The notes below the pieces were generated by a model. That model saw only the letters and a list, made by a program, of their open reading frames with translations. It was not told the DNA's origin and ran no database searches. DNA of 64,000 nt, taken from positions 27 through 64,026 of the forward strand of contig JANQNL010000166.1 of NCBI GenBank assembly GCA_028279585.1, given 5' to 3'. This DNA is from Thermoplasmatota archaeon. Its GTDB lineage: Archaea; Thermoplasmatota; Penumbrarchaeia; JANQNL01. The position numbers and the translations under genes were made by a program. The first letter of the stretch is position 1. Each line of letters starts with the position of its first letter. Shown one piece after another: positions 1 through 62,430 of this stretch.

Positions 1-56
1 GGAGAGGCACGAGCCAGAGGTCGAAGTCGGGTGGGGGGGTTGGGAGGGGGTGGGGG
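1..56 (+). repeat. G-run-rich element, weak or partial copy at the window edge
   Basis: CGAGCCAG is followed by GGGTGGGGGGGTTGGGAGGGGGTGGGGGTGGGCCG. It shares the CGAGCCAG 8-mer and G-run organisation with the copies at 27588 and 41568. Confidence 0.4.
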
Positions 57-125
57 TGGGCCGCCCCCATTGCATAATCCCATCATGGACAAACCACCTA
101 TACGACCAGTGCATTCCCCCCATCC

Positions 126-23607: not shown

Positions 23608-23620
23608 GAGAACTGATACC

Positions 23621-37751: not shown

Positions 37752-38993
37752 ATGGAATCGAACAGTACGAACGAACAGGTGGTCCAACCGGTGAGACGCC
37801 GAGGGGCAAGGAAGTCCCAGAAGGCTCTACCGCCGCAGGCCGCCCAGGAAGCACCGCCCCCAAGGCCTCCACCGATGCAAGGTGAGCAGGACGACCTGGA
37901 ATGGGACGATGGCGGCGGCGGTGATCCTGTTGGAGCTGGCACTCCGTTCACAGACGGTGCCGTGGACGACTATTTGACAGACGATATCAGGGAAGCCATG
38001 AACATGCAGGTGGACCCGCACAACATGGAAGGTGTGGTCCTGAACCTTGCAAGGGACAGCGGACTTCTGCTGGAGGAAGTAGGCAAGGCCATCATCGGAA
38101 AGGAGGACGTTCTCCTGAAGGTCTTCACATCCATCCTCTCGGACGGACACATCTTGTTCGAGGACTTCCCGGGTCTTGCGAAGACGCTGATGGCGAACTC
38201 CTTCGCAGACGCCCTGGGATGTAGGTTCAAGAGGGTGCAGTTCACCCCGGACCTTCTTCCTTCAGATATCACAGGGACCAAGGTGTATGATGAGCGGCGC
38301 GGAGAGTTCTACTTCGAGCGCGGCCCGATCTTTACCAACATCCTCCTGGCAGACGAGATAAACAGGGCTCCTCCGAAGACGCAGGCCGCCCTTCTCGAGG
38401 CGATGCAGGAGAGGCAGGTAACTGTGGCTGGTGTCACATACAAACTGCCAAGGCCATTCGTGGTGCTTGCTACCCAGAACCCCATCGAGTACGAGGGGAC
38501 CTATCCACTGCCTGAAGCGCAGCTGGACAGGTTCAGGGTCAAGCAGTCCATCGGATATCCGTCCCTGGACCACGAGGACGAGATCCTCAAGCGCAGGATA
38601 GAGAGGCAGAAGGACGACGTGGACATCAAGCGTGTCATGTCCCCAGCATCCATCATCAGGATGCAGAGGATAGTGGAGAACGTGTTCGTCGAGGATAGCT
38701 TGAGACGATACATTGTGGCTTTGGTCCAGAAGACCAGGTCCGACAATAGGGTCCTTGTGGGCTCCTCACCAAGGGGTTCTTTGTCGCTACTCAAACTCGC
38801 ACGAGCTGCAGCGGTCCTCAACAACAGGGCCTACATCATACCTGACGATATCAAGGTCTCTGCAATGGGCTGTCTTTCACACAGGCTCATCCTGAAACCT
38901 GAATACCAGATAAAGGGACTGACCAATGAAGAGGTCATCAACGACATATTAGAATCAACACCACTGGACATGGTAGAGAAGTATGTGGACTAG
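37752..38993 (+). CDS. MoxR-family AAA+ ATPase with a low-complexity N-terminal extension of about 100 aa
   Basis: ATG 37752 lies 8 nt after GAGGTG; the ORF track starts at GTG 37743. MoxR signatures are IIGKEDVLLKVFTSILSDGHILFEDFPGLAKT (Walker A variant), FKRVQFTPDLLPSDITG, ILLADEINRAPPKTQAALLEAMQERQVT and VLATQNPIEYEGTYPLPEAQLDRF. The N-terminal segment is Pro-rich and acidic. Confidence 0.9.
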   Translation: MESNSTNEQVVQPVRRRGARKSQKALPPQAAQEAPPPRPPPMQGEQDDLEWDDGGGGDPVGAGTPFTDGAVDDYLTDDIREAMNMQVDPHNMEGVVLNLARDSGLLLEEVGKAIIGKEDVLLKVFTSILSDGHILFEDFPGLAKTLMANSFADALGCRFKRVQFTPDLLPSDITGTKVYDERRGEFYFERGPIFTNILLADEINRAPPKTQAALLEAMQERQVTVAGVTYKLPRPFVVLATQNPIEYEGTYPLPEAQLDRFRVKQSIGYPSLDHEDEILKRRIERQKDDVDIKRVMSPASIIRMQRIVENVFVEDSLRRYIVALVQKTRSDNRVLVGSSPRGSLSLLKLARAAAVLNNRAYIIPDDIKVSAMGCLSHRLILKPEYQIKGLTNEEVINDILESTPLDMVEKYVD

Positions 38994-40302
38994 AAAGGGC
39001 CAGCTCTTTGTAGCGGGAGGCGCCGCACTCGTACTTGCAGGTGTTGTTCTGAACGCACCGTTCGTACTATTTGCTGGGTTCTTCCCGCTCACAGCCGTAC
39101 TCCTTGCAGCGTTGGTCCGTTTAAAGCGTGACATCGAGCGGACCTCGAAAAAGCTCTCTGCAAGGAAGAAGGCTGCAAAGTTGGGCCTGAAGTTCGAACG
39201 TGAGCTCTCACATGCCAGTGTCGTGGAGGGAGATGAGGCTGAGGTAACGTTGAAGGTCACCAACACCACAGCTTTGGTCAAGAGACTGCAGGTCAAGGAC
39301 GGGGTCGCGGACAGGCTCCGTGTGACCTCCGGTCGCAATCACAAGGCCGTCGTCCTTCCTCCCAAGGGAACTGTCGAGCTGAAGTACAAGGTATGGGCAC
39401 CTGTGAAGGGAGTGCATGACCTTGGACCTATAACCATCCGGACCTCGGACATCGCAGACATCTTCTTCGATGAGCTGACCGTGGACGAGAACTCCTCGCT
39501 GATGGTGCATCCGGGACCAGTTCCGACCAAGGGTGTAAGTGTAAAGAGCAAGGTTCCAAAGCTTTACTCTGGCTCTACGATAATCAACAGGAAGGGGCAG
39601 GGGACCGAGTTCTACAGCTTGAGAGAATACGTCGTCGGGGATAACTACAAGGACATCAACTGGACCGCTTTTGCAAAGACCAAGAGATTAATGGTCAACG
39701 AGCACACCATGGAAGCGGTGGTTGAGGTCACGATGTTCCTGGACTACAGGGCCGTTTCGAGCATTGGTCCTGTGATGAACGCTGTGGACGTTGTCTCTGC
39801 AAGAGCTGCTACCTCGATAGCTGACGCTTTCCTCAAGCGTAGGGACAGGGTCGGCATCGTGGTATACAACGACTCCATCCACCAGCTTGGCTGCGAGGGC
39901 GGGATGAAACATCAGCGCAAGATCAGGGATACAGTATCCGGACTCTCGGTTAAAGGAGACCTCGGTCTTGGCTCCGTTGTCAACACACTGATGCACACGA
40001 TCCGCAAGGGCACACCGGTCATCATCATCTCGAGCCTCGAGCAGGACCCCACGGTGCTTCAGGGCATCAAAAAGCTTCGAGCGCTGCGATGCGATGTTAC
40101 GGTTATCTCACCTACAGCGATACCAACCGAGTTGGACAAAGGAGCTCGTTCCGAGGCTGACCTCCAGAAGCTGCAGGTCATCCAGCAGGAGCGTGACGTG
40201 GCCATGGCACAGGCGACCTCGCTTGGTGCCAAGGTCGTGGACTGGGACATCAGGGTGCCTCTAGCAGAGGTCATGGTAGGAGGTGGTCCAGGTGGCCGAT
40301 GA
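38983..40302 (+). CDS. DUF58 (VWA-like) domain protein with N-terminal double TM
   Basis: Overlaps the moxR stop by 11 nt. The N-terminal hydrophobic hairpin is LFVAGGAALVLAGVVLNAPFVLFAGFFPLTAVLLAALV. The DUF58 signature is FYSLREYVVGDNYKDINWTAFAKTKRLMVNEH, followed by a VWA-like VGIVVYND segment. Confidence 0.85.
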   Translation: MWTRKGQLFVAGGAALVLAGVVLNAPFVLFAGFFPLTAVLLAALVRLKRDIERTSKKLSARKKAAKLGLKFERELSHASVVEGDEAEVTLKVTNTTALVKRLQVKDGVADRLRVTSGRNHKAVVLPPKGTVELKYKVWAPVKGVHDLGPITIRTSDIADIFFDELTVDENSSLMVHPGPVPTKGVSVKSKVPKLYSGSTIINRKGQGTEFYSLREYVVGDNYKDINWTAFAKTKRLMVNEHTMEAVVEVTMFLDYRAVSSIGPVMNAVDVVSARAATSIADAFLKRRDRVGIVVYNDSIHQLGCEGGMKHQRKIRDTVSGLSVKGDLGLGSVVNTLMHTIRKGTPVIIISSLEQDPTVLQGIKKLRALRCDVTVISPTAIPTELDKGARSEADLQKLQVIQQERDVAMAQATSLGAKVVDWDIRVPLAEVMVGGGPGGR

Positions 40303-41014
40303 GAAGAAAAAAGGCCAGATGGACGGTCTGATCACAGACGTGGTCCTTGGCATCATCGGTCTGGTCTTCTCGCTCGGACTTGCAGGAGGCTTCATGGCCT
40401 TGACGCATCTGACCGGATGGTTCGCGTTACGGTTCGCGCCCTGGACCTACATTCTTGTTGGAGCGGGACCGGTTATCTGGGGGATAGTTGCGTTCATCCC
40501 TCACATCAAGAGGGGTGTGAAGGTCGGTGACGATACTTACAGCTACAAAGAACCGCTGCATCTGTTCGCTCTTGCTGTGATTGTAGCACCATTGTTCTTT
40601 GTGGAGACCGCTGGTTCTGGGTTCTTCACTGGAAGCTTCATTTGGGTCCTGGTACGAGGGTTGCTGGTCATTGGTTACATCGCAGATTGTGCTATCCTTT
40701 TAGAGCTTGCTGCGTTGTCGGTCAACATCGCTCACAACAAGGTCCAGGATGATGGACCTGGAGGAGGAAAGGTCGGTGCGCTCGCTCCGAAATCGTTGAT
40801 CTTCTTCCTCATCTTCATGCCTCTGTTCATCTTCATCGTCTTCATCGTGATGTGCGCGTTCTGGATCGGCGAGCTCGGTTTGATGCTCGTGCTTCCAACA
40901 CCGATACCGGAAAGCCTGGAGGTCGCCACAGTGTATCCGCTTGCGATCCTGGGGGCTGCGGTGGCGTTGGTGTTCGGGCTGATCTTCCTCGCGATAAGCT
41001 GGATACGTGGTTAG
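40283..41014 (+). CDS. polytopic membrane protein, last membrane component of the MoxR/DUF58 string
   Basis: 243 aa with about 6-7 hydrophobic helices. GTG 40283 overlaps the DUF58 stop, and an alternative ATG lies at 40319. I recognise no family. Confidence 0.5.
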   Translation: MVQVADEKKKGQMDGLITDVVLGIIGLVFSLGLAGGFMALTHLTGWFALRFAPWTYILVGAGPVIWGIVAFIPHIKRGVKVGDDTYSYKEPLHLFALAVIVAPLFFVETAGSGFFTGSFIWVLVRGLLVIGYIADCAILLELAALSVNIAHNKVQDDGPGGGKVGALAPKSLIFFLIFMPLFIFIVFIVMCAFWIGELGLMLVLPTPIPESLEVATVYPLAILGAAVALVFGLIFLAISWIRG

Positions 41015-41042
41015 TTTCAAAGCGAAGGAACGCGATATCGCT

Positions 41043-41558
41043 ATGATGCATCGAAGGTTCCTTGCGGTCATTCTTCTTCTCACGATCGCTGTTGCAGCTG
41101 TGGCTTCGTCCGGATGTACTTCACTTCCACTCATCTCTGATGGAGGCTCTGGAGCGCCCCACGCTGAAATCGAGAACCAAGTGCACGACCTTATCAACCA
41201 GCATCGAAAGGACCAGGGCTTGGAGCCACTGAAGTGGTCCAAAACCATCGCGAAGGAGTCCCGTGGTCATAGTGAGAACATGGCCGATGGTAGCGTCGAG
41301 TTCTCACACGATGGGTTCAGCGACAGGGCTGCGAACATCGAGGACGAGATGGGCGGGACCGTGGTAGGGGAGAACGTTGCCATGAACTGGGGGTATGATG
41401 ATCCTGCGCAGGTTGCTGTGACGGGGTGGATAGGAAGTCCAGGGCACAAGGCGAACCTGGAGGGGGATTTTACCCATACTGGTGTGGGTGTGGCGCAGAG
41501 CGAGGATGGGCATTGGTACCTTACTCAAATATTTCTTAAAAAGGAAGAATCAGCATGA
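41043..41558 (+). CDS. CAP/SCP/PR-1-like secreted (lipo)protein
   Basis: From ATG 41043 the N-terminus is MMHRRFLAVILLLTIAVAAVASSGC, a lipobox-like Cys. CAP-domain motifs are SRGHSENMA, GENVAMNWG and GWIGSPGHKANLEGDFTHTGVG. Confidence 0.75.
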   Translation: MMHRRFLAVILLLTIAVAAVASSGCTSLPLISDGGSGAPHAEIENQVHDLINQHRKDQGLEPLKWSKTIAKESRGHSENMADGSVEFSHDGFSDRAANIEDEMGGTVVGENVAMNWGYDDPAQVAVTGWIGSPGHKANLEGDFTHTGVGVAQSEDGHWYLTQIFLKKEESA

Positions 41559-42601
41559 ACAAAGCGCCCGAGCAGGCCGAGGGGGGAGGGGCCGAGGCCA
41601 GCGGAGGGCGCAGGGGGGCGGAAGGTGGGCCGGTGGGGAATCTTCCGAATGTCCTCTCTGCATCCCGCACCAAGGACCCTATCGCCCGCAACCCTGATGT
41701 CCTCGCGTCCATCCTATGTGGCGAATCACCTGCAGCTTTTGGCCCTAGCTCCAAGTCTCGAACGGTCCACCTTGAGGACTTCGCTGTCCTTGTACTGTGG
41801 ACCAAAGATCCAACAAACCTCCTGAAGCATCCGGAACTTAACCGGGTGGTCTCGGACTTTTCAGGTCACAGCTATCTGAACCTCACGGTCACAGGTCTGG
41901 GGGGAACGTTCATGGAGCCTGGCATCCCGAAACCGGAGCAGGTCTTTGATGTCCTACGTGACATCATCGATGCAGGTATCCTTTCCCCCGAGTGGGTGCT
42001 ACTTCGATATGATCCCTTGCTCGAAGTTCGTACGCCAGGAGGAAAGGTCCTCACAAACACTGACCGTGAGCTGTTCGGGTCCATCATCAAGGAAGCTGCA
42101 TCCATCGGGATCACCCGGTGTGCCACCTCTCGCATGGACTTCCAGCGATACCCGCAGGTGGCTGAGCGACTCCGGCGGTTCGGCATTGAGCCAAAGGAAG
42201 TGGAGCTCGAGGATCTCATCACGGAAATGGATTCAGTCGCATCCCATCAGGGCATCGAGCTCTCCTGCTGTGTGGACCCGGTCATCGATGGGATCACCGA
42301 TAGGTTCGGGTGCATCGATGGAGAACTGTTCAATGAACTGATCGGTGAGGACCTTTGCGATACGTCGACCCACAGTGCCCAAAGGCATGGATGCAAGTGC
42401 ACACGCTCTGTGGACATCGGTTACTCCAAAGGATTACAGCAGTGCTTCACTGGGGGAAAAGGATGTCTCTACTGCTATTCTCAACGAGGATATCCAAAGA
42501 AGTTAGAGCATCAGGTACAGCATTTACTTTCGAAGTTTGAACAAAACCAGAATTTTTCTCCGTCTCATTCCAAGCATCGAAAAACTCTGGACGCTGCATA
42601 A
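41555..42601 (+). CDS. DUF1848-family protein (C-terminal Cys-cluster), start uncertain
   Basis: Pattern VLSASRTKD..LVLWTKDP..LRYDPLL..GCIDGEL..QRHGCKCTRSVDIGYS..CFTGGKGCLYCYS matches my memory of DUF1848 conservation. ATG 41555 overlaps the upstream stop (ATGA) but adds a 26-aa Gly-rich leader encoded by the G-rich repeat. An alternative in-frame GTG lies at 41633. Confidence 0.65.
   Translation: MNKAPEQAEGGGAEASGGRRGAEGGPVGNLPNVLSASRTKDPIARNPDVLASILCGESPAAFGPSSKSRTVHLEDFAVLVLWTKDPTNLLKHPELNRVVSDFSGHSYLNLTVTGLGGTFMEPGIPKPEQVFDVLRDIIDAGILSPEWVLLRYDPLLEVRTPGGKVLTNTDRELFGSIIKEAASIGITRCATSRMDFQRYPQVAERLRRFGIEPKEVELEDLITEMDSVASHQGIELSCCVDPVIDGITDRFGCIDGELFNELIGEDLCDTSTHSAQRHGCKCTRSVDIGYSKGLQQCFTGGKGCLYCYSQRGYPKKLEHQVQHLLSKFEQNQNFSPSHSKHRKTLDAA
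41568..41648 (+). repeat. G-run-rich element (CAP / DUF1848 gene junction)
   Basis: CCGAGCAGGCCGAGGGGGGAGGGGCCGAGGCCAGCGGAGGGCGCAGGGGGGCGGAAGGTGGGCCGGTGGGGAATCTTCC. Confidence 0.7.
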
Positions 42602-42810: not shown

Positions 42811-45800
42811 TTACTGGATATATTTCTGGCAGGCGTCACACCAGTTGGCGTTGTACTCCTCGATGAACCTACCGGGCTGTCCGCAATCAGGACAGATCGG
42901 GGCTCCAGCTGCAGGAGCGGCTGCGGCTGCTGGGTCTGCGGCTGCAGGATCAGCGGCTGCGGCCTCTGGCTGAGCTGCCATGTCAGGTGCTGCTGCATCG
43001 ACAGGAGCCTCGCCCTCGGCTGGTGGGAGTTCGCCAGGCTGCTCACCCTCAGGGACCTGAGGCTGCTCGCCCATTGGTGAACCCTCGACCTGGCCCTCTG
43101 CAGGTGGGTAGGCCTCGCCACCCTCGACAGGTGGGTAAGCTTCGCCCTCTGCTGGAGGCTGGCCTTCCATGCCAGGCTGAACTTCGCCCTCTGGTCCGGC
43201 TGGACCAGCTGCGACCTCACCCTCGACTGGTGGTGCGCCCTCTGCTGGTGGCTCCTCTGCGGCTGCTGCGCCCTTCTTCTTCTTCATCATCATGACGACT
43301 ACGACTATGATGATGATGATGATGATCAGGAGCACGAGACAGACAACGCCGCCGCCGATACCGGCGAGCATCATTGTGTTGTCATCGCCGTCGCCGCCGT
43401 CGCCACCGTCGCCACCGTCTGTGCCGCCGCCAAGGTTGGCCTCGAGCTCGTCGACACCGTAGCCTTCCTCGGACCAGGCGACTGCCATGTACCACTGGTG
43501 ATACACATCAGGTGTTCCACCGTCACCGCCGTCGCCACCATCGGTGGTCGTCGGGTTGTCGTAGGTCACAGGATCGGTGGTGTAGGTATAGGACCAAGCA
43601 CCGCCGGATGGTGTGATCTCGAGCTTGGACATGGTGTCCAAGTCTGTGAAGGCGTAGTATGTGTATGCATCATCGTTGGTCTGGGAGCCGAAGTAGATGT
43701 AGATGACGGTCACATCGCTGCCACAGGTTCCCTCGAAGGTGTAGACCGTGGTTGCGGTGGATGTTCCATCGCCGTTGTCAACTGCAGTAGTGATGATATC
43801 ACACTTGTCGAAGGTGACTGCAACGGTGGATGCATAGTCATCCTGGGTCTCGATGTCGGCATCGCCGACGCCAAGTGCCCACCATGTTGGCTCTGGGGTA
43901 GATGGGCCAGTCTCGATGGTGGCCTCGAGCTCGTCGTAGTTGAATGCACCGGTATCGTCCCAAGCGACAGCTGCATACCAAGTGGTATACGTGGTACCGT
44001 CGCCACCGTCGCCTCCATCGCCACCATCGGTTGGTGGGGTGTAGTCGAAGGTGTAGGTGTAGGTGTAGTTCCAGGCGGTGACACCATCGAGCTCGATCAC
44101 GATGTGCTCCATCGGGGTCAGGCTCATGTCGTATGCCTTGTAGTAGGTATAGTCGGTGTCGTTGATCTGGGTGGCTACATACAGGTGGACCTCTGTAACA
44201 GTGTCAGAGCAGGTTCCAGCGAAGTTGTAGACTGTGGAACCGGAGGTTCCCTCGATGGTGGTTGCGGACTTGGCCTCATCGATGGTGACATCGATAAGGG
44301 TGTCGATCCAGAGATCATCGTCGAAGTCTGCAGGCATTGCACCGAGGTCCCAGGTCCTTGGTCCACCAGGAACGCCATCGATAGAGACGTTCATGGTGAC
44401 CCACTCGCCCATGGCTCCGTTGGAGTCCTTGAGGGACAGGTTCACGGTATAGTTCATGTCATCCTTTATCAGATCATAGGTGTGGTTTGCACCGGTGGTC
44501 ATATTGGTCTCGAAGACCGCAGAGCCATCGCCCCAATCCCACATGTATGTGACCTCATCGCCCTCTGGGTCCTCTGCACCGTTAGGGGTGAAGGTGATGT
44601 GGTTAGGGTCGAAGAAGTCTGCGAGGGTCATGAAGCCAGCGGAGAACGAGAACACAGGTCCGTCGTTGACTGGGCCAACATCGACCATCACGTGGGTGAA
44701 GGTGCCCTCATCGCCGTTGGTGGAGGATGCGTCCTTCACCTCGACGGTGAAGTTCATGACACCATTGGCGTCTGCGTCAGGTGTGAAGGTGTACCACCAT
44801 GGCATCGTTGCGTTCGCCTCGACGGTGAACGGAGCCATGCTGTCGTCCTTGCTGACGGTGAAGGTCAGGTTCTCAAGGTCTGTATCAACATCTGTTGCGT
44901 TGATCTCGAACATGAAGCCCATGTCCTCATCGGTGGTCAGGTTGACGATAGGCTCAATGGCTGCTGCGCCGCCATACCAGGTCTCGTTCATCATCTCTGG
45001 CATCTTGTCGGTGTCATCGACGATGAGCTTGACGAACATTGGCTTGTCGTCAACAGCTGCTATCTGAACGGTGATGTTGAACTCAATGGAGAGGCTTCCG
45101 TCGGTGGCGTTGATGGTAACATCCTCGTCGCCGGACATGTCGGCCTTACCAGTGATCTCGAGCCACTCGGTGGCGTTGATCGAAGCATCGAAGAGCGTAG
45201 GTGTCCCGATGATGGTGAACGTAAGATCGTCCATGTTCGGGTCTGTGACCAGAGCGTTGAGGTCCACTGCGGTCATTGCCTCCTCGTCGATGGCAACTGG
45301 ATTGTTGGTTCCAAGCACTGGGGCCGCGTTCGGGTCCATGATGCTGAAGTCAACGGTGTAGTTGCCACCAGCGGTGGCCTGCTCATCGTAGCCAGGGACA
45401 CCAGCGGTGACGTTCCTTCCAGTAATCAGAAGGTAGTAGACACCAGTGGTGGCTGCTGTGTAGCTGATCGAGGATCCGGTGGAACCATTGACCCACATTG
45501 CATCTTCTATCATGCTGGTGTTGTCAGCAGCACTGTAGAGGTATGCTCCGACGAAGTCAGTGCCAGCCGTGGTGTAGGCAACATCGATGTCGATGAGCTG
45601 ACCAGCAGTGACGTTGAACTTCCAAAAGTCAAGGGTGTCCAGCCAAGGATCGATGAAGTCTGTGTTAGAGTCCATGTCCTCTGCCCACTTGGCGGAGGCG
45701 AAGGTCTCTGTTCCATCAACCTCTGGCTTCTCCTCGTAGAATGGCACTGCGCTCACGTTGTAACCGACCTCGAGATCGACTGCATCACCAGAGATGACAA

Positions 45801-46200
45801 GATAGAAATCTCCATTGTCTGGTGTGTAGAAGCTCGCCATGCCGGCATCGTCGGCGCTGAAGCCATATCCCCACATCAGGATACCATCGGAGGTAAGTAC
45901 CTCAAAATGACCTGGTCCCATTGTGGTTATTGTCCAGTTGAACGTGACGTTCTGGTTCGCCGCGAGCGGGAACTTGAGGATATCCAACATATCCCCACTT
46001 CCGGGCGCCTGAACGCTCCCATTTGAGTAATCGTCTACAAAGTTATACACGTTGTTTGTATCTGCTTCGGCCATCGTATCATTTGGATTTCCCTCATTGA
46101 CGACAGCTGTTGCTGCTGGTATAAGCAGAGCAACGGCGCCGAAAACAAGACAAAAGACAAAGAATAGCGTGGCCAATCTCCTGTGCAGGTTCCCTTCCAT
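42811..46200 (-). CDS. large surface protein: PPC-like, cadherin-like and PKD modules, two copies of an unrecognised membrane-proximal domain, TM, Pro/Glu/Ala-rich tail and terminal zinc ribbon
   Basis: ATG 46200 has GAGGTGA 8 nt upstream; the ORF track starts at 46227. The signal is LATLFFVFCLVFGAVALLIPAATA. Motifs include LDFWKFNVTAGQLIDIDV (PPC-like), VDDKPMF/VNDGPVF (cadherin-like junctions) and YMWDWGDGS (PKD). The TM is VVCLVLLIIIIIIIVVVVMMM followed by KKKK. The protein ends CPDCGQPGRFIEEYNANWCDACQKYIQ. Confidence 0.8.
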   Translation of the reverse strand: MEGNLHRRLATLFFVFCLVFGAVALLIPAATAVVNEGNPNDTMAEADTNNVYNFVDDYSNGSVQAPGSGDMLDILKFPLAANQNVTFNWTITTMGPGHFEVLTSDGILMWGYGFSADDAGMASFYTPDNGDFYLVISGDAVDLEVGYNVSAVPFYEEKPEVDGTETFASAKWAEDMDSNTDFIDPWLDTLDFWKFNVTAGQLIDIDVAYTTAGTDFVGAYLYSAADNTSMIEDAMWVNGSTGSSISYTAATTGVYYLLITGRNVTAGVPGYDEQATAGGNYTVDFSIMDPNAAPVLGTNNPVAIDEEAMTAVDLNALVTDPNMDDLTFTIIGTPTLFDASINATEWLEITGKADMSGDEDVTINATDGSLSIEFNITVQIAAVDDKPMFVKLIVDDTDKMPEMMNETWYGGAAAIEPIVNLTTDEDMGFMFEINATDVDTDLENLTFTVSKDDSMAPFTVEANATMPWWYTFTPDADANGVMNFTVEVKDASSTNGDEGTFTHVMVDVGPVNDGPVFSFSAGFMTLADFFDPNHITFTPNGAEDPEGDEVTYMWDWGDGSAVFETNMTTGANHTYDLIKDDMNYTVNLSLKDSNGAMGEWVTMNVSIDGVPGGPRTWDLGAMPADFDDDLWIDTLIDVTIDEAKSATTIEGTSGSTVYNFAGTCSDTVTEVHLYVATQINDTDYTYYKAYDMSLTPMEHIVIELDGVTAWNYTYTYTFDYTPPTDGGDGGDGGDGTTYTTWYAAVAWDDTGAFNYDELEATIETGPSTPEPTWWALGVGDADIETQDDYASTVAVTFDKCDIITTAVDNGDGTSTATTVYTFEGTCGSDVTVIYIYFGSQTNDDAYTYYAFTDLDTMSKLEITPSGGAWSYTYTTDPVTYDNPTTTDGGDGGDGGTPDVYHQWYMAVAWSEEGYGVDELEANLGGGTDGGDGGDGGDGDDNTMMLAGIGGGVVCLVLLIIIIIIIVVVVMMMKKKKGAAAAEEPPAEGAPPVEGEVAAGPAGPEGEVQPGMEGQPPAEGEAYPPVEGGEAYPPAEGQVEGSPMGEQPQVPEGEQPGELPPAEGEAPVDAAAPDMAAQPEAAAADPAAADPAAAAAPAAGAPICPDCGQPGRFIEEYNANWCDACQKYIQ

Positions 46201-46411
46201 GTGGTTCACCTCATTCGGAATTACCATGTCAGGCTACCGCTATATAGTAACCTTGAGATAAGCCATAATATTATGCTATATAAGATTTGCTGCTGTTATC
46301 TAGGTACTTTAGGCTAGTATATATATAATCATAATAAAGGACCAGTGGTCGGCCGTACCGATGTATGGACCACGAGTCTAATGATTGTTAACATGTTGGA
46401 TGGCTAAACAT

Positions 46412-52861: not shown

Positions 52862-55800
52862 ATGTACGCAAAACGCCTCGTGTGCTTGATCATGCTGGTG
52901 GCACTGGCCACATCAGGGATCGTTTTCATAAGCACCGCGACGGAACAGGCTGTACAGGGTCCAGAGACCCGTGATGTACAGTCCAGGGCCGGTTTCATTA
53001 ATCTTTCAGGTTACATCAAGCTGAAACCGGGGAACACGCCGATCGCAGATAACACTGTGATGCTGACAGGTCCTGAGACCAACACAACAGTGACAATGGC
53101 CGATGGTTTCTATACTCTCAACCTGGATGGGAACCTCAAGGGCGATTATATCATGATGATCGGTGGAAAGATGGAGGTCACGCTCAAGCTCGAGCCTGAT
53201 ATGTACTACTGGTACAACACTTCGTTCGAGCCTCACTTCCCGAAGGTGAACTCGCTCGATGTGAACGCCTTCGAGTTCGGAACATCGAATGCAGTGGACC
53301 CATTCTCGGTCACCGCGACCGTTGTGGATGCGTGGGGCCTTTCCCACACGGACTCTGCTGTGGGTTCTGGTGGAACTGCGACCTTGAACCTGCCTAATGG
53401 AACAGCTAATCTAATGCTGTCCTCTGCAGGGTTCCACACCACATACTTCGGTGTGACAGTACCAGATTCGACCACGGTCGATGTGGACATGATGAAGTAT
53501 CCTGCACTACCTGATGAGGACTCATCCTACACTGGAACCGTCTACTCCGAGGATGGTGCAAGGGCTACGACCCCTATCGTGAATGCAAGTGTGTCCGTAT
53601 CCGGATATACATATGCAAACCCAGAGGACTGGTTCGTCAACAGCACATACACTGATGGTGCAGGTGTTTATGACATGAACCTCCCAGCCGGGTCCTACGA
53701 TGTTAGTGTCTATACCCATGGAGGTATACCAGATGTGACATCCACCTTGGATTTCCAGACTGGTCTGTACTTCAATACCACAGCGACCATCAACAGAGAC
53801 TTCACACTTGACGAGGTCCCACTCGTAGAGGTCACTGGCCATGTGACAGAGACAGGTGCTTCATCCACGGATATCGCTTATGCATCGATCTATGTCCAGC
53901 AGGCAGATTGGACCAACACCACCACAACTGATATGAACGGCGATTACAGCATCTTGCTCCAGCCAGGCCCAGCCGACTTCGACATCGGTGGACCATCCGG
54001 TTATCACAGCCTTGAGTTCGCATACACTGTGCCCGGAACTGGTGGAACTAAGGACTTCACCCTCGACAAGGAGGAGGAAGACCATCCGATCAGTGGTAAG
54101 GTCACAGACAACGCAACTGGTCTGGGACTTCCTGGTGTCACTGTTACCGCGATAGGTGATTTCTATAACACCACCATCACGGACATGAACGGTGACTACG
54201 CGATGAACGTCACTGCTGGAGAACATAGCATCATGGTGATGAGGAAGCATTACATGGGCACTGACTCCAAGGATGTTACCATAACCCATACAAGGGCGCC
54301 ATCTGCAACCGTGAACTTCGCCATTGACCCATACTGGCCTGATCACTTCTGGGTCAATGGAACAGTGCAGAAGAACTCCATCGGTGTCTATCCAGCCCAC
54401 GTGGCCTTCACAGGAACCACAAGCATGGGCATGGAGATCTGGCAGACGTTCTACGTGAACATGGATGGCGACTATTATGCATATCTGCCTCGTGGTGCTT
54501 ACACCGCGACCGCTGATGATCCGAACTATGACAATGTCTACAAGCCAGAGAAGAAGGACATCGTCCTTACTGCAGACATGACACTTGACTTCGACATGTG
54601 GGCAAGGCCTGTCATGGTCTACGAGCTGTTCGGCTTCGTATACGATGCAGAGGATAGTTCCGACATCATCGATTGGCAGGTGGATGTGGATAATGAGGAC
54701 CCAGATGAGAAGATTCACAAGAACTTCCCATTGACAGATGACAAGGGCTTCTACAGGACCTACTGCACAGATGGTACCTATACCATCGATGTCATGGTCC
54801 CTGGTTACAAGCCATATCTGTCCAAGGACAATGCAATATCTGCAGATACCGAGCACCATATCGGTCTGTCCAGGATGGGTACCGAGAACAACACCGTTCA
54901 GGGAACCATCTACGATGAGAACGACAGTCCGATCACTGCTTCCATCACTCTGTACGACGTCGACAACGGCATGACCGTTGCCAACTCCACAGAGGGAAGC
55001 ACCTACGACTTCCTCTGCTACGATGGTAACTTCAACATCACAGCAGAGGGCAACGGTGGACTGGTAGCCTGGCAGCACTTCAGCATATCCGGCGAGCAGA
55101 CACTGGTCATCAACCTGTCCCTGATCCCTTCAGCGAACATCACAGGTTACCTCAACGGCTCTGATGGTGTGAACTACACTGTCCTTTCGGACTTCGAGGT
55201 GTTCCTGCTCGATGACATGAACATGACCTTTGACTCCACCATGACCAACGAGTCTGGTTACTACGAGTTCATGGACCTCGATGTTGGAGATTACTATATC
55301 TTCGTCAACGAGACTCCACTGTGGGTCTGGCATCTTTCAGAGGAGCAGGTATTGGCAAGGGACGCTGACATTGAGTACAATATGACGCTCGATGCCAAGC
55401 CGACACCACCACCGTTCGTCAACATCACAGGATACGTCGAGTACTTCGACGGACCTCTTGATGGAATGCCTGCGGCTGGTGCCAATGTGACCCTCTACGA
55501 CGAGATGGATGCAGAACTCGCCACTGTCATGGTCGACGAATGGGGATTCTACAACATCTCAGATGTTGAGTCACTTAAGGACCACTACCTGAACTTCACT
55601 CCACCTACAGGCCTCGAGGCAGATGTTGGAACCGACCCAGGTTACCTCTTCTTTGAGACCGAGATCTTCCAGCTTGGCAGGAATGGCACATTCGATGCCA
55701 CCCTCGATTACTGGGAGCTTCCACCAGGTGGAATGGTCAACGTTACCTGGACATCTCCATTGAACGATGCTGAGATGGTCGACATCGGTGCCGATGTCAT

Positions 55801-57601
55801 CATCGCCTTCGACTACGAGATGAACCAGGAGGCTACAGAGGCAGCCATCAACTTCTCCGGTGATATGAACTTCACATACGACTGGAGCAGCAATGGTAAG
55901 ATCCTGACCATGACACACGACGACGACTTCGAGTATAACACGGACTACACCGTCACTGTCATGGACACAGCCAACGCAACAGATGGCACCATGATCTTCG
56001 CCGAGTATGCGTTCAGTTTCACCACCATGGGTGTGCCTGCGGCAGAGCCAGAGTGGTGGATCATGGGAACCAACAGGGAAGACATCGTCAACGAGACCTG
56101 GTTCAACGACACCATCGATATAACCTTCGATGTGTTGATAATCAGCTCATCCGTAGTAGAGGAGAACTCTACACACTCCAACGCTACGACCACATACGAG
56201 TTCAGCGGAACCTGCAGTAGCGATGTGAACGTTGTCTACATCTACTTCGGTGCCCAGCTCAACGATGATCCGTTCACCTACTATCCGTTCTACGACATGG
56301 AGACCCTCGACAAGCTCGAGATCATCCCAGAGGATGGAGATTGGGAGTACAAGTATGAGAGCTGGATAGTCTACGAGACCCCTGAACCTGTAGATGGAAC
56401 TGATGGCGGCGACGGCGGCGATGGTACCACGGATGTCTATCACTCCTGGTATATGGCTGTCGGTTGGACCGACGGTGGTTTCGATTACGCAGAGAAGGAG
56501 TTCATGCCAGGCGGTGGCGGTGACGGCGGCGGCGGTCCTGTAGAGGTCGATCCAGAGTGGGTCGATCTTGGTATCCCTGATACGGAGATAGAGGACCAGG
56601 ACCACTTCCTTGGCGCTGTGGATGTTGCCTTCACCGAAGCTTCACAGGTCATCAAGACCGTTGATAATGGTGATGACACCTCAACAACCACCACAACCTG
56701 GACCATCAAGGGAACCTGCTCTGATAACGTCACTGTTGTCTACATCTACTGGGGAACACAGACCAACGAGGATGACTTCTCGTTCTCACCGTTCTACAAG
56801 CCAGGAACCATAGAGAAGCTCGAGATCGATGCTGCTGATGGCGAATGGGAGTGGACCGACGAGTCAGAGGTCACTTATCCAACACCAGATCCAGTGGATG
56901 GAGCTGATGGAACTGACGGTACCGACGGAACGACCGACACCTTCACGACCCACATGCTTGCGGTTGGATGGGCACCAGAGGGCTGGGGTTACCAGACCAC
57001 TGAGCTCAGCAACGAAGCCGGCGGCGGTGGCGGCGGTGGTGGCGGTGGTGGCGGCGGTGGCGGCGGTGGCGGAGGCGGCGGCTCCGGCGGTATCGGCAAT
57101 CTTGGATTCCTTGGCTATGGTATCTGTGGTGGCCTGTGCTGCATTGTGCTCATCATTGTGCTGATCATAATCGTGATCGCCATAGTGGTTGGCAAGGGCA
57201 AGAAGAAGAAGGCCGCAGCAGCTGCCGAGGGCGAGGCCGAAGGTGAGGATGGAGAGACCCCACCACCACCAGAGGACGAAGACGGTGAAGTACCACCACC
57301 ACCAGAGGGTGAGGAAGGAGAACTTCCACCTCCAGATGAGGAGGAGGGAGAGCTTCCACCACCTGATGAGGATGGCGAGGAGATCCCACCACCGGAGGGT
57401 GAGGAAGGAGAACTGCCTCCACCAGATGAGGAGGAGGCTGGAGAACTTCCACCACCAGACTCTGAGGACGAGGAAGCCCTCGAGATGGATGACGACGCCG
57501 ACGAGGACGAACAGGCTCTTGAAATGGACGACGACGCGGAAGCGGACGAAGACGATGAGATGTTCGAGATCGACGACGACGATCCTCCACCACCAGAGTA
57601 A
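52862..57601 (+). CDS. large (1579 aa) surface protein: carboxypeptidase-regulatory-like beta-sandwich repeats, two copies of the membrane-proximal domain shared with 42811..46200, 21-Gly run, TM, and a (E/D)-rich PPP-repeat tail
   Basis: AGGAG lies upstream of the ATG. The signal is LVCLIMLVALATSGIVFIS. Repeats resemble GKVTDNATGLGLPGVTVTAIG..TDMNGDYAMNV. The TM is LCCIVLIIVLIIIVIAIVV followed by GKGKKKK. The tail has GEEGELPPPDEE-type repeats. Confidence 0.8.
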   Translation: MYAKRLVCLIMLVALATSGIVFISTATEQAVQGPETRDVQSRAGFINLSGYIKLKPGNTPIADNTVMLTGPETNTTVTMADGFYTLNLDGNLKGDYIMMIGGKMEVTLKLEPDMYYWYNTSFEPHFPKVNSLDVNAFEFGTSNAVDPFSVTATVVDAWGLSHTDSAVGSGGTATLNLPNGTANLMLSSAGFHTTYFGVTVPDSTTVDVDMMKYPALPDEDSSYTGTVYSEDGARATTPIVNASVSVSGYTYANPEDWFVNSTYTDGAGVYDMNLPAGSYDVSVYTHGGIPDVTSTLDFQTGLYFNTTATINRDFTLDEVPLVEVTGHVTETGASSTDIAYASIYVQQADWTNTTTTDMNGDYSILLQPGPADFDIGGPSGYHSLEFAYTVPGTGGTKDFTLDKEEEDHPISGKVTDNATGLGLPGVTVTAIGDFYNTTITDMNGDYAMNVTAGEHSIMVMRKHYMGTDSKDVTITHTRAPSATVNFAIDPYWPDHFWVNGTVQKNSIGVYPAHVAFTGTTSMGMEIWQTFYVNMDGDYYAYLPRGAYTATADDPNYDNVYKPEKKDIVLTADMTLDFDMWARPVMVYELFGFVYDAEDSSDIIDWQVDVDNEDPDEKIHKNFPLTDDKGFYRTYCTDGTYTIDVMVPGYKPYLSKDNAISADTEHHIGLSRMGTENNTVQGTIYDENDSPITASITLYDVDNGMTVANSTEGSTYDFLCYDGNFNITAEGNGGLVAWQHFSISGEQTLVINLSLIPSANITGYLNGSDGVNYTVLSDFEVFLLDDMNMTFDSTMTNESGYYEFMDLDVGDYYIFVNETPLWVWHLSEEQVLARDADIEYNMTLDAKPTPPPFVNITGYVEYFDGPLDGMPAAGANVTLYDEMDAELATVMVDEWGFYNISDVESLKDHYLNFTPPTGLEADVGTDPGYLFFETEIFQLGRNGTFDATLDYWELPPGGMVNVTWTSPLNDAEMVDIGADVIIAFDYEMNQEATEAAINFSGDMNFTYDWSSNGKILTMTHDDDFEYNTDYTVTVMDTANATDGTMIFAEYAFSFTTMGVPAAEPEWWIMGTNREDIVNETWFNDTIDITFDVLIISSSVVEENSTHSNATTTYEFSGTCSSDVNVVYIYFGAQLNDDPFTYYPFYDMETLDKLEIIPEDGDWEYKYESWIVYETPEPVDGTDGGDGGDGTTDVYHSWYMAVGWTDGGFDYAEKEFMPGGGGDGGGGPVEVDPEWVDLGIPDTEIEDQDHFLGAVDVAFTEASQVIKTVDNGDDTSTTTTTWTIKGTCSDNVTVVYIYWGTQTNEDDFSFSPFYKPGTIEKLEIDAADGEWEWTDESEVTYPTPDPVDGADGTDGTDGTTDTFTTHMLAVGWAPEGWGYQTTELSNEAGGGGGGGGGGGGGGGGGGGGGSGGIGNLGFLGYGICGGLCCIVLIIVLIIIVIAIVVGKGKKKKAAAAAEGEAEGEDGETPPPPEDEDGEVPPPPEGEEGELPPPDEEEGELPPPDEDGEEIPPPEGEEGELPPPDEEEAGELPPPDSEDEEALEMDDDADEDEQALEMDDDAEADEDDEMFEIDDDDPPPPE
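57020..57082 (+). repeat. GGY trinucleotide microsatellite encoding 21 consecutive Gly
   Basis: There are 63 nt of GGC/GGT/GGA codons in frame within 52862..57601, immediately before the TM helix. Confidence 0.9.
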
Positions 57602-62125: not shown

Positions 62126-62167
62126 GCGAAGTCACCTATGAAAGAAAAAGGTTGTGTAAGAACCGTC

Positions 62168-62200
62168 CCGAGCGAGCAGGGGAGCGGGGGAGAGGCTCTT
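62168..62200 (+). repeat. G-run-rich element, left half of a split intergenic copy
   Basis: CCGAGCGAGCAGGGGAGCGGGGGAGAGGCTCTTC. Confidence 0.55.
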
Positions 62201-62330
62201 CGATAAGTTTGCTTCGTCATACCATTTGTGTCGCAAACTTATCGCTCCCGTCGCGATATCCCGTCGATGGCAATTGATATCGCCTGGACATCGATGTTAG
62301 GTTGAGATTCGCTGCGACATAAACATCGAT

Positions 62331-62385
62331 GCAGCGCAGCGAGGGCTGGGGGGCAGGTGGTGGGTTGGTCGGGGACCACGAATGA
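62331..62385 (+). repeat. G-run-rich element, right half of the split intergenic copy
   Basis: GCAGCGCAGCGAGGGCTGGGGGGCAGGTGGTGGGTTGGTCGGGGACCACGAATG aligns by eye with GCAGCGAGCGATAGGGGGGAGGCTGGTGGGCCGGACGGGGACTCTTCAG of the 36158 copy. Confidence 0.55.
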
Positions 62386-62414
62386 AAGCAAAGGTGGGGC
62401 CCGAAAGCCCCACC
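62381..62414 (-). terminator. hairpin plus T-rich tract downstream of the thermosome gene
   Basis: On the minus strand, GGTGGGG-CTTTCGGG-CCCCACC is followed by TTTGCTTTC, beginning 16 nt after the stop codon. Confidence 0.55.
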
Positions 62415-62430
62415 AGATCGGAGTATCTTC

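What the first reader, a model, noticed from the sequence alone, without database searches (positions are those of the whole stretch)
41568..41648. A G-run-rich element of about 80 nt recurs five times in 64 kb, in coding and non-coding contexts
Copies lie at 27588..27668, 36158..36245, 41568..41648, a split copy at 62168..62200 plus 62331..62385, and a weaker partial copy at 1..56. All are on the plus strand. Each has 5-7 runs of G3-G7 separated by 1-7 nt, bracketed by (C)CGAGCAGG and GG(G/A)A(C/T)TCTTC. The 27588 and 41568 copies have the same length and are roughly three-quarters identical by eye. Two copies are translated as tails. One sits exactly at the CAP/DUF1848 junction; it is either a 26-aa Gly-rich leader if ATG 41555 is used, or untranslated if GTG 41633 is the start. 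One is intergenic. In all the copies I translated, the same relative frame stays open and yields SEQ/PEQ-x-GGG-type peptides. Candidate roles are a G-quadruplex-forming RNA or DNA element at operon junctions, a small dispersed repeat, or a recombination hotspot that spreads the tail cassette.
Basis: seen in the sequence. Interest (0 to 1): 0.7.

Follow-up and report, generated by a model that had tools for sequence, protein, structure and literature searches.

The report
Dispersed G-rich hairpin repeat in an archaeon
An ~85-base G-rich DNA unit that folds into a long imperfect hairpin recurs four to five times in this archaeal contig, is read through in frame where it lies inside genes, and resembles hairpin elements found between genes in other archaea, so it is a small dispersed nucleic-acid repeat and not a protein motif.

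Summary
Three full copies (27584-27666, 36156-36241, 41564-41645) are 71-82% identical, with z = 7-14 against dinucleotide shuffles. A fourth copy is split by a 135-nt hairpin-rich insert (62167-62201 plus 62336-62376). The block at 1-66 is only suggestive.

The conserved feature is not the G-runs. It is a ~48-nt imperfect hairpin: an outer stem, a GA internal loop, an A·A mismatch, an 8-bp inner stem with tandem G·A pairs, and a GGGGAGNGG loop. A G-tract tail ending GGGGA(C/A)TCTTC follows.

Conservation is at the nucleotide level. pN/pS among the translated copies is 0.75-0.87. A peptide profile found only the three window proteins among 1.84 billion. Flanking sequence is unrelated.

Relatives lack the unit at both comparable sites: the orthologous giant-protein tail and the DUF1848 N-termini.

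Four metagenome contigs from other archaea carry the same hairpin in AT-rich intergenic DNA, with compensatory changes. Rfam has no match.

Best reading: a lineage-amplified, non-autonomous dispersed repeat tolerated at gene termini, like Rickettsia palindromic elements, and related to a structured element family that may be RNA. G-quadruplex formation is possible but not conserved. The mechanism of spread and the genome-wide copy number remain unknown.

The parts
27584..27666 (+). Copy A. Hairpin 27584-27631: outer stem GCGGCC/GGCCGC, GA internal loop, GC, A·A, inner stem GGTGAGGG/CCCGAGCC with a tandem G·A, loop GGGGAGGGG. G-tract tail 27632-27658. 3' end GACTCTTC 27659-27666. Lies in the cytoplasmic C-terminal tail of the 1394-aa surface protein (23573-27757), 91 nt before the stop, translated as AEQVRGGGARASGGRWGVDGGEGGDSS.
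   Evidence: 59.6 bits with R1; 41.8 bits with R2, built without window sequences
36156..36241 (+). Copy B. Same layout, but both stems are kept only through tandem G·A pairs, so it is the most degenerate hairpin. Lies in the C-terminal tail of the 2056-aa protein (30180-36350), 109 nt before the stop, translated as [28 protein letters not shown].
   Evidence: fold z about 0; 50.6 bits with R1; 24.6 bits with R2, within the control range
41564..41645 (+). Copy C. Hairpin 41564-41611: outer stem GCGCCC/GGGCGC, inner stem GGCCGAGG/CCGAGGCC. G-tract tail, then GAATCTTC 41638-41645. Starts just after the CAP-domain gene's stop (41558). It is either the first 26 codons of the DUF1848 gene (ATG 41555, overlapping the upstream stop as ATGA) or a 74-nt spacer that supplies an AAGGTGG Shine-Dalgarno-like box 4-5 nt before GTG 41633.
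   Evidence: fold z = -2.6; 36.6 bits with R2
62167..62201 (+). Copy D, 5' piece: CCCGAGCGAGCAGG, the 5' strand of the stem, the loop GGGGAGAGG and C, joined directly to TCTTC. Intergenic, 43 nt from the start of the minus-strand tRNA-guanine transglycosylase gene.
   Evidence: 1 mismatch; 12 bits
62202..62335 (+). Insert that splits copy D. Three perfect hairpins: 62201-12/62233-44 (12 bp), 62253-60/62276-83 (8 bp), 62289-98/62322-31 (10 bp). A further 8-bp pairing, 62309-16/62335-42, crosses the third hairpin. These hairpins are not repeated elsewhere in the window.
   Evidence: (fold z = -3.05)
62336..62376 (+). Copy D, 3' piece: GCAGCGAGGGC (3' strand of the hairpin base) plus the G-tract tail ending GGGGAC. 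Lies just past the terminator-like hairpin of the minus-strand thermosome gene.
   Evidence: 36/43 identical to copy B, z = 9
1..66 (+). Possible copy E, cut by the window start inside the hairpin loop. It has the 3' half of the hairpin (GGAGAGGCACGAGCCAGAGG) and a very G-rich tail. About 60 nt upstream of the HAD-hydrolase gene (126-806). Homology is not statistically established.
   Evidence: z <= 2.4; 14 bits, E = 3.8

Best explanation
The finding is a discrete ~85-nt, strand-specific nucleic-acid repeat, not a peptide motif.

Anatomy: each full copy has a ~48-nt imperfect hairpin followed by a ~30-nt run of G-tracts that ends GGGGA(C/A)TCTTC. The hairpin has a 6-bp outer stem, a GA internal loop, two G-C pairs, an A·A mismatch, an 8-bp inner stem that tolerates tandem G·A pairs, and a 9-nt loop GGGGAGNGG.

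Shown: the host is an archaeon, most likely of Thermoplasmatota. The unit is present at several gene termini in this contig and absent from the comparable sites examined in relatives.

Inferred: the unit was gained and multiplied in this lineage. It survives at gene termini because the G-rich strand has an open frame, so read-through only adds a flexible Gly/Ala/Glu/Ser/Arg stretch to the end of a protein. This matches how Rickettsia palindromic elements behave.

Shown with moderate support: the hairpin module belongs to a wider family of archaeal elements. In other archaea these sit in AT-rich intergenic DNA and keep the stem through compensatory changes.

Inferred: the fold matters, either for whatever copies the unit or for an RNA or protein partner. 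The copying mechanism itself (mobilisation in trans, or ectopic gene conversion) is not shown.
For: Repeat and boundaries: copies are 71-82% identical with z = 7-14. Sequence upstream of A, B and C, and downstream of C, is unrelated (z about 0).

Nucleotide-level, not protein-level, conservation:
- pN/pS = 0.75-0.87 among the translated copies.
- A 1-nt indel shifts the frame at the 3' edge of copy C while the DNA still aligns.
- A profile of the three peptides searched against 1.84e9 representative proteins returned only the three window proteins.

Gain in this lineage:
- DUF1848 homologues start about 10 residues before ILSASRTKD and lack the 26-residue leader.
- The syntenic contig L130 (MoxR 67% identical) encodes the orthologous giant protein with a tail ending ...AKAFSQADKEALGQGDKKEGGGKQ*. 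It has no model match and no long G-block in 20 kb.

Hairpin:
- RNAfold gives the same architecture for copies A and C and for four metagenome loci.
- On the 7-sequence alignment, 80% of cells pair, against 29-43% for slid partners. Eight pairs have changes on both sides. The covariation score is 0.268 against 0.12 in shuffles (0/500).
- Copies A and C differ by a compensatory G-C to C-G swap in the outer stem.

Wider family:
- L121, L122, L125 and L128 lie in AT-rich intergenic DNA of archaeal-looking contigs.
- A model built from these four alone scores copy A at 41.8 bits and copy C at 36.6 bits. About 96 control loci that share the search pattern by chance score at most 26.7.

Placement: all copy midpoints lie within 150 nt of a gene end, while 18% of the window does (p about 2e-4).
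Against: - No terminal inverted repeats or target-site duplications were seen. The window has no transposase, integrase or reverse transcriptase.
- The genome-wide copy number is unknown. The rest of the genome could not be reached, and one collection scan was wasted.
- All copies are on one strand, which a randomly inserting element would not predict. With five copies this is weak evidence (about 1 in 16).
- The 5' flank of copy B resembles the orthologous coding sequence in L130. Part of that copy could therefore have arisen in place or by conversion.
- The metagenome relatives look like single-copy, possibly promoter-driven units. Two of them (L121, L125) sit at orthologous loci. That fits a functional RNA better than a selfish repeat.
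- Copy B matches the independent model no better than the chance controls do.
Confidence: 0.5

Rival explanations
1. It is a functional cis-acting RNA module. The hairpin with its G·A motifs and G-rich loop would be a binding platform for a protein or another RNA. Placed near the 3' ends of long messages and at operon junctions, it would control mRNA stability, processing or translation of the next gene. In copy C, for example, it supplies an AAGGTGG ribosome-binding box before GTG 41633. The stand-alone versions in other archaea would be small RNA genes of the same class.
For: - The stem is kept by compensatory changes across contigs of 44-53% GC from different archaea.
- L121 and L125 keep about 165 nt of element plus upstream box at orthologous loci.
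- TATA-like boxes lie about 25-30 nt upstream in L128 and L121 (my reading, not tested).
- Four of the five window copies are in the sense orientation of the surrounding genes. The only antisense one is the disrupted copy.
- All copies lie at gene ends.
Against: - Relatives lack the element at the same sites.
- Window copies are more alike to each other than to any outside relative, as expected after recent multiplication.
- The stems of the window copies are degraded. Only 1-2 of the 4 free inner-stem positions form standard pairs, and the fold z-scores are -0.06 to -2.6.
- Two copies lie inside coding sequence about 100 nt before the stop, not after it.
- No expression data are available.
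Confidence: 0.28
2. It is a G-quadruplex-forming element, in DNA or RNA, whose function depends on the G-tracts. The hairpin would be incidental.
For: - G4Hunter window scores are 1.45-1.6 for all copies, and no comparable block exists on the other strand.
- ViennaRNA with G4 energies lowers the free energy of copies A and B by about 10 kcal/mol through two-tetrad quadruplexes. The 1-66 block has canonical motifs.
- G-runs recur in the metagenome relatives, in the loop GGGGAG and in GGGT and GGGGGA.
Against: - No canonical (G3+ N1-7)x4 motif occurs in the three full copies.
- No quadruplex appears in the minimum-energy fold of copy C or of any of the four relatives.
- Many of the Gs are held in the conserved hairpin.
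- The positions that covary are stem positions, not G-tract spacing.
Confidence: 0.1
3. It is ordinary Gly-rich, low-complexity coding sequence. The similarity would come from paralogous protein tails and codon composition.
For: - Two copies lie in tails whose Lys-rich ends are related (z = 4.9).
- The orthologue in L130 also ends in a short Gly/Lys-rich tail.
- G-rich sequence rarely contains stop codons.
Against: - Copy C and copy D are not in such tails.
- Similarity stops sharply at the ends of the unit.
- Nucleotide identity (71-82%) exceeds amino-acid identity (40-46%), and pN/pS is about 0.8.
- No peptide family exists in 1.84e9 proteins.
- The 2366-aa protein has the Lys-rich tail without the unit.
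- Intergenic relatives exist in other archaea.
Confidence: 0.07

Closest known systems
Rickettsia palindromic elements (RPEs)
   Same: Both are short, hairpin-forming dispersed repeats found between genes and inside open reading frames. Inside genes they are read through in frame and add a peptide segment without destroying the protein (review PMC10969869).
   Different: RPEs are about 100-150 bp, occur in dozens of copies, are bacterial, and are described as encoding a conserved peptide. This unit is about 85 nt, very G-rich and archaeal. Only 4-5 copies are known, all at protein termini, and the peptide shows no constraint. There is no sequence relationship.
REP/BIME elements (repetitive extragenic palindromes)
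   Same: Both are small G+C-rich imperfect palindromes at gene ends. The stem is kept by compensatory change, and the elements are strand-specific relative to a recognition sequence at the hairpin base.
   Different: REPs are 20-40 bp, extragenic, tagged by GTAG or CGTC at one end (PMC3733652, title and abstract listed; the tag sequences are in its title) and linked to RAYT transposases. Here the head is CGAGCAGG, two to three copies are in coding sequence, a 30-nt G-tract tail is attached, and no RAYT-like gene is in the window.
MITEs of archaea and bacteria
   Same: Both are non-autonomous, multicopy and short, and can fuse in frame with host genes (PMC10969869).
   Different: No terminal inverted repeats, no target-site duplications and no partner insertion sequence were seen.
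Tandem sheared G·A motifs in RNA helices, e.g. the (GGCGAGCC)2 duplex (from my own knowledge of the RNA-structure literature, not checked here)
   Same: The inner stems of copies A and C and of L128 read GGYGAG.../...CGAGCC. This places 5'-GA-3' opposite 5'-GA-3' between G-C pairs, the context in which such pairs are stable.
   Different: This is a structural motif, not a system. It only explains why the 'mismatched' stems may still fold.

Membership tests
MITE | Terminal inverted repeats at the two ends of the unit | tested here: not met
   The ends are (A)AGCG..CGAGCAGG and GGGGA(C/A)TCTTC, which are not complementary. The palindrome is internal.
MITE | Target-site duplication flanking each copy | tested here: not met
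   Flanks of A, B and C are unrelated and show no short direct repeats across the unit. Only copy A has GAGCAGG twice, 18 nt apart, on its 5' side.
MITE | Many copies per genome and a partner autonomous element | not testable with these tools
   Only this contig of the genome could be read. No transposase is present in the window.
REP/BIME | 20-40 nt palindrome headed by GTAG or CGTC, in extragenic positions | tested here: not met
   The hairpin is about 48 nt and is headed by CGAGCAGG. Copies A and B, and probably C, lie inside ORFs.
Rickettsia palindromic elements | Palindromic repeat inserted in frame into ORFs as well as between genes | tested here: met
   This is a match in behaviour only. 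Sequence homology is not expected and none was found.
Rickettsia palindromic elements | Conserved encoded peptide | tested here: not met
   Amino-acid identity is 40-46%, pN/pS is 0.75-0.87, and no other protein in 1.84e9 matches.
Canonical G-quadruplex motif | Four runs of at least 3 G separated by loops of 1-7 nt | tested here: not met
   Met only in the 1-66 block. The full copies need an 8-nt loop or two-tetrad stacks. G4Hunter scores are 1.45-1.6.
Any Rfam 15 family | Covariance-model score at or above the gathering threshold | tested here: not met
   No match in the window at gathering thresholds. Only chance-level matches in the copy D region and in the metagenome relatives.
Kink-turn (L7Ae-binding) | Three-nucleotide bulge followed by tandem sheared G·A pairs | tested here: not met
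   Tandem G·A positions are present, but the internal loops are 2x2 or 2x3 with at most a 1-nt bulge (my reading of the folds).
Integron attC site | Hairpin with RYYYAAC/GTTRRRY core sites, in an array of short cassettes next to an integrase | tested here: not met
   No such core sequence, genes of 0.5-6 kb, and no integrase.
Archaeal intergenic hairpin + G-tract elements (L121, L122, L125, L128; unnamed, defined here) | CGAGCAGG, 8-bp stem, loop GGGGAGNGG, stem, CCAG(C/A)G, enclosed by an outer stem and followed by G-tracts | tested here: met
   Copies A and C score 41.8 and 36.6 bits with a model built without them, against at most 26.7 for about 96 pattern-sharing controls. Copy B scores 24.6, which is inconclusive. 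The window copies lack the AT-rich second hairpin and the third hairpin of that family.

The most novel reading that the evidence does not exclude
The hairpin plus G-tract module may be an undescribed structured RNA class of archaea. It would be a protein- or RNA-binding rod with tandem G·A pairs and a GGGGAGNGG loop. In some lineages it would exist as stand-alone small RNA genes. In this one it would have been copied into messages and operon junctions, where it still acts in processing, stability or translation start.
Probability: 0.25. Interest if true: 0.7.

Novelty: new variant of a known kind. Interest (0 to 1): 0.5.

Why it matters
- Very few dispersed repeats are known in uncultivated Thermoplasmatota-like archaea, and I know of none reported to be read through in frame. 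This would be an archaeal counterpart of the Rickettsia case and a source of new low-complexity protein termini.
- The hairpin module recurs, with compensatory changes, in unrelated archaeal contigs and is absent from Rfam. It is therefore a concrete candidate for a new structured element that can be tested with the covariance models built here.
- The unit also has a practical effect. An independent assembly stops inside one copy, and the window itself starts inside another possible copy.

Tried and rejected
- Genome-contig scan with a 17-base pattern. Those loci later served as controls.
- Exact look-ups of window proteins in the assembly index failed three times. Only a 5.5-kb Logan contig identical to the window was reachable, so the rest of the genome could not be scanned.
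- Two viral-contig scans and two PLSDB plasmid blastn searches found nothing.
- The nearest thermosome and MoxR relatives are only about 65-71% identical. The loci L118, L131 and L132 were not syntenic for the relevant sites and had no model hits.
- I considered a frameshift inside copy B after a hand-translation slip. The tool translation showed one continuous frame, so I dropped it.
- I considered and rejected these on anatomy: kink-turn, H/ACA or C/D guide RNA, group II intron domain V, SRP helix 8, BHB intron, integron attC, replication-origin ORB boxes and a poly-G sequencing artefact. None was supported by Rfam.
- Forcing the base of the hairpin to close around the insert in copy D costs 7.8 kcal/mol compared with the minimum-energy fold, which is inconclusive.
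- The peptide-profile search needs about 41 bits for E <= 0.001. It would miss diverged translated copies, so it does not bound the copy number.
Full report
CONTEXT

The window is essentially one contig of an archaeal metagenome-assembled genome. It encodes a thermosome (62431-63933, minus strand) and a queuine/archaeosine tRNA-ribosyltransferase (TGT, 60998-62125, minus strand). It also carries several giant surface proteins with TSP3, PKD, FG-GAP and CARDB domains. G+C is about 54%. The DUF1848 and MoxR proteins are 100% identical to database proteins from an NCBI contig of 64,068 nt. The nearest thermosome and MoxR relatives are only 65-71% identical; those that carry names are mostly Thermoplasmatota/Poseidoniales-type archaea, with a few Thorarchaeota thermosomes. 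There are no tRNA genes and no Rfam matches at gathering thresholds.

Yes. A G4Hunter scan shows they are the only long G-rich blocks in 64 kb. Degenerate patterns for the 5' and 3' halves each match four times, against none in 100 shuffles.

Because the sequence is G-rich, I tested similarity against dinucleotide shuffles:

- A (27588) vs C (41568): 67/86 identical, z = 14.
- C vs B (36158): 71/87, z = 13.6.
- A vs B: 61/86, z = 7.3.
- The 62331 piece vs B: 36/43, z = 9.
- The 62168 piece vs the full copies: z = 2.2-5.
- The block at 1-66: z <= 2.4 against every copy.

The 1-66 block therefore remains only a plausible truncated copy. It carries GGAGAGGCACGAGCCAGAGG, which resembles the 3' half of the hairpin, and the window begins inside what would be the loop.

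An independent Logan assembly of run SRR20820740 gives a contig identical to window 36083-41597. It contains copy B and stops 29 nt into copy C. The copies are therefore not a product of one assembler. I cannot say whether that break reflects a repeat or poor coverage.

ANATOMY

The G-runs are not the most conserved part. All full copies begin with a ~48-nt imperfect hairpin. In copy C it reads:

GCGCCC-GA-GC-A-GGCC-GA-GG [GGGGAGGGG] CC-GA-GGCC-A-GC-GGA-GGGCGC

The features are a 6-bp outer stem, a GA internal loop, two G-C pairs, an A·A mismatch, an 8-position inner stem and a 9-nt loop GGGGAGNGG. RNAfold returns this same architecture for copies A and C.

Copies A and C differ in the outer stem by a compensatory swap (GCGGCC/GGCCGC against GCGCCC/GGGCGC). 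In the inner stems, 5'-GA-3' lies opposite 5'-GA-3' between G-C pairs. From my own knowledge this is the context in which tandem sheared G·A pairs are stable. Copy B keeps both stems only through such pairs and folds no better than shuffles (z = -0.06).

After the hairpin comes about 30 nt of G-tracts, ending GGGGA(C/A)TCTTC.

Copy D has the 5' strand and the loop (62167-62196) and the 3' strand plus tail (62336-62376). They are separated by 135 nt that form three perfect hairpins, plus a crossing 8-bp pairing. These hairpins are unique in the window.

A covariance model of the hairpin (R1), run with filters off, finds only the three full copies (50-60 bits) and the 62165 piece (12 bits). It finds nothing on the minus strand.

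NUCLEIC ACID OR PEPTIDE?

The evidence points to nucleic acid.

- The three translated copies share one frame but are only 40-46% identical as peptides, against 71-82% as DNA.
- pN/pS is 0.75-0.87.
- A 1-nt indel shifts the frame at the 3' edge of copy C while the DNA still aligns.
- A profile of the three peptides, searched with HMMER against 1.84 billion representative proteins, returned only the three window proteins. A diverged copy would score below the threshold of about 41 bits, so this shows there is no peptide family but does not count copies.
- Similarity ends sharply at the unit. Upstream flanks of A, B and C, and the downstream flank of C, are unrelated (z about 0).
- The Lys-rich tails after A and B are related (z = 4.9). 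The same kind of tail ends the 2366-aa minus-strand protein (z = 9.6 against B), which has no G-rich unit. The unit is therefore separable from the tail cassette.

GAINED IN THIS LINEAGE

DUF1848 homologues (41-43% identical) start about 10 residues before the conserved ILSASRTKD. The Pfam match in the window protein also starts after the leader. GTG 41633 would give a homologue-like N-terminus and is preceded by AAGGTGG. ATG 41555 fits the start/stop overlaps used throughout this operon. I cannot decide between them. Either way the unit is extra.

Contig L130 is syntenic: giant TSP3/transglutaminase protein, DUF4350, MoxR (67% identical), DUF58 and a membrane protein. Its orthologous giant protein aligns through ...TFEKARYS... 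and then ends ...AKAFSQADKEALGQGDKKEGGGKQ* without the unit. L130 has no model match and no long G-block in 20 kb.

One caveat: the 18 nt before copy B (CAAGCGAGCGAGCAGGCC) resemble the orthologous CAGGCGGACAAGGAAGCT in L130. Part of the 5' edge of copy B may therefore be native sequence, or a preferred target.

RELATIVES ELSEWHERE

A 21-base pattern derived from the 5' half of the three full window copies was scanned over JGI metagenome contigs and gave 10 hits.

- Six hits are in 59-72% G+C contigs and look like chance. Two of them are the same sequence.
- Four hits (L121, L122, L125, L128) lie in AT-rich intergenic DNA of 44-53% G+C contigs. L122 carries RtcB, FKBP26 and an archaeal-type GAPDH.

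In three of these four, the positions left free by the pattern form a perfect 8-bp stem with different sequences: GGCCACGG/CCGTGGCC, GGCCTGGG/CCCAGGCC and GGCGGCAG/CTGCCGCC. L128 has the G·A version. All four continue CCAG(C/A)G, as the window copies do, and none of the chance hits does.

On the 7-sequence alignment:

- 80% of cells pair, against 29-43% for slid partners.
- Eight pairs have changes on both sides.
- The covariation score exceeds all 500 shuffles.

The pattern biases this comparison, so I built a second model (R2) from the four metagenome sequences alone. I scored the window against about 96 control loci that share the pattern by chance:

- Copy A: 41.8 bits.
- Copy C: 36.6 bits.
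- Copy B: 24.6 bits.
- Best control: 26.7 bits.
- Chance hits to the full pattern: 14-20 bits.

Copies A and C are therefore related to this family beyond the pattern. Copy B is not distinguishable from the controls by this test.

The outside members are longer. After the hairpin and G-tracts they have an AT-rich second hairpin, GGGGGA, and a third hairpin. L121 and L125 are orthologous loci, both next to an AlbA_2/Schlafen-HTH gene. They keep about 165 nt, including a conserved upstream box with a small hairpin. TATA-like boxes lie about 25-30 nt upstream in L128 and L121; that is my reading and was not tested. None of these loci matches Rfam.

G-QUADRUPLEX

G4Hunter scores are 1.45-1.6. The three full copies lack a canonical (G3+ N1-7)x4 motif. 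ViennaRNA with quadruplex energies adds two-tetrad quadruplexes in copies A and B, and none in copy C or in the four relatives. A quadruplex is possible but is not the conserved feature.

PLACEMENT

All copy midpoints lie within 150 nt of a gene end, whereas 18% of the window does (p about 2e-4). Four of the five copies are in the sense orientation of the neighbouring genes. The antisense one is the disrupted copy D. The + strand has a positive GC skew through most of the window. With five copies on one contig, strand bias relative to replication and strand bias relative to transcription cannot be separated. The window has no transposase, integrase or reverse transcriptase.

INTERPRETATION

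The best-supported reading is a discrete, lineage-amplified dispersed repeat, conserved as nucleic acid, that persists at gene termini because read-through is harmless. This matches the behaviour described for Rickettsia palindromic elements (PMC10969869), but it is not that family. It also fails the defining features of MITEs (no terminal inverted repeats or target-site duplications) and of REPs (wrong head sequence, wrong size, and located inside genes).

The covarying hairpin in other archaea says the fold is under selection somewhere. That keeps a functional-RNA reading alive at about 0.28. The two readings are not exclusive: a repeat derived from, or recognised like, a structured RNA would fit both.

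How the unit is copied is inferred, not shown.

Noticed in passing
window 62197-62335: A 135-nt block of three perfect hairpins (12, 8 and 10 bp) plus an 8-bp pairing that crosses the third one, like a pseudoknot. It sits inside copy D, between the TGT and thermosome genes. The whole 62160-62430 region folds with z = -3.05. It could be an RNA gene or a set of protein-binding palindromes.
   Followed up: partly
window 9980-10060 (-), 27667-27757 (+), 36242-36350 (+): Three giant surface proteins end in related Lys-rich tails (KKGKKKKGKSKK-type). Tails 36284-36332 and 9998-10046 are 78% complementary as DNA. Two proteins (9980-17080 and 17563-23607) also carry CPxCG zinc-ribbon motifs in their C-terminal regions.
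   Followed up: partly
window 37743-38050: The MoxR-type ATPase has an N-terminal extension of about 100 residues, rich in Pro, Gln and Gly. Most homologues lack it: they cover only about 72-77% of the query.
   Followed up: no
window 41555-42601: The best homologues of the DUF1848 protein are only 41-43% identical. Those that carry names are bacterial (Latescibacteria, LCP-89, Zixibacteria), which hints at horizontal acquisition. The gene sits at the end of a MoxR-DUF58-CAP operon that lacks CAP and DUF1848 in the syntenic relative L130.
   Followed up: no
L125 2470-2800 and L121 960-1020: L125 has a second copy of the conserved upstream box (GTTCCTTCGGAAC hairpin + TCACATTAGGAATTTCT), followed by a C-rich stretch instead of the G-rich element. 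After that comes a series of GTGC-loop-GCAC hairpins. L121 ends in a similar AGCGCAAAGCGCT palindrome.
   Followed up: no
window 43594-43761 (-) and 56177-56344 (+): A 168-nt inverted repeat, 71% complementary, lies between two surface-protein genes on opposite strands (42811-46227 and 52862-57601). These are probably paralogous domains.
   Followed up: no
window 57011-57088: A run of GGC/GGT codons, encoding poly-glycine, inside the 1579-aa protein. It is a separate Gly-rich stretch unrelated to the element.
   Followed up: no
L129 (Logan SRR20820740), equal to window 36083-41597: The independent assembly ends 29 nt into copy C, in the hairpin loop. The window itself starts inside the loop of the possible copy at 1-66. 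The element may be breaking assemblies.
   Followed up: partly
P0111 / L118: The top-scoring thermosome hit is a 726-aa protein with an internal duplication of about 175 residues, on a 340-kb ENA contig. This is probably an assembly or polishing artefact.
   Followed up: no
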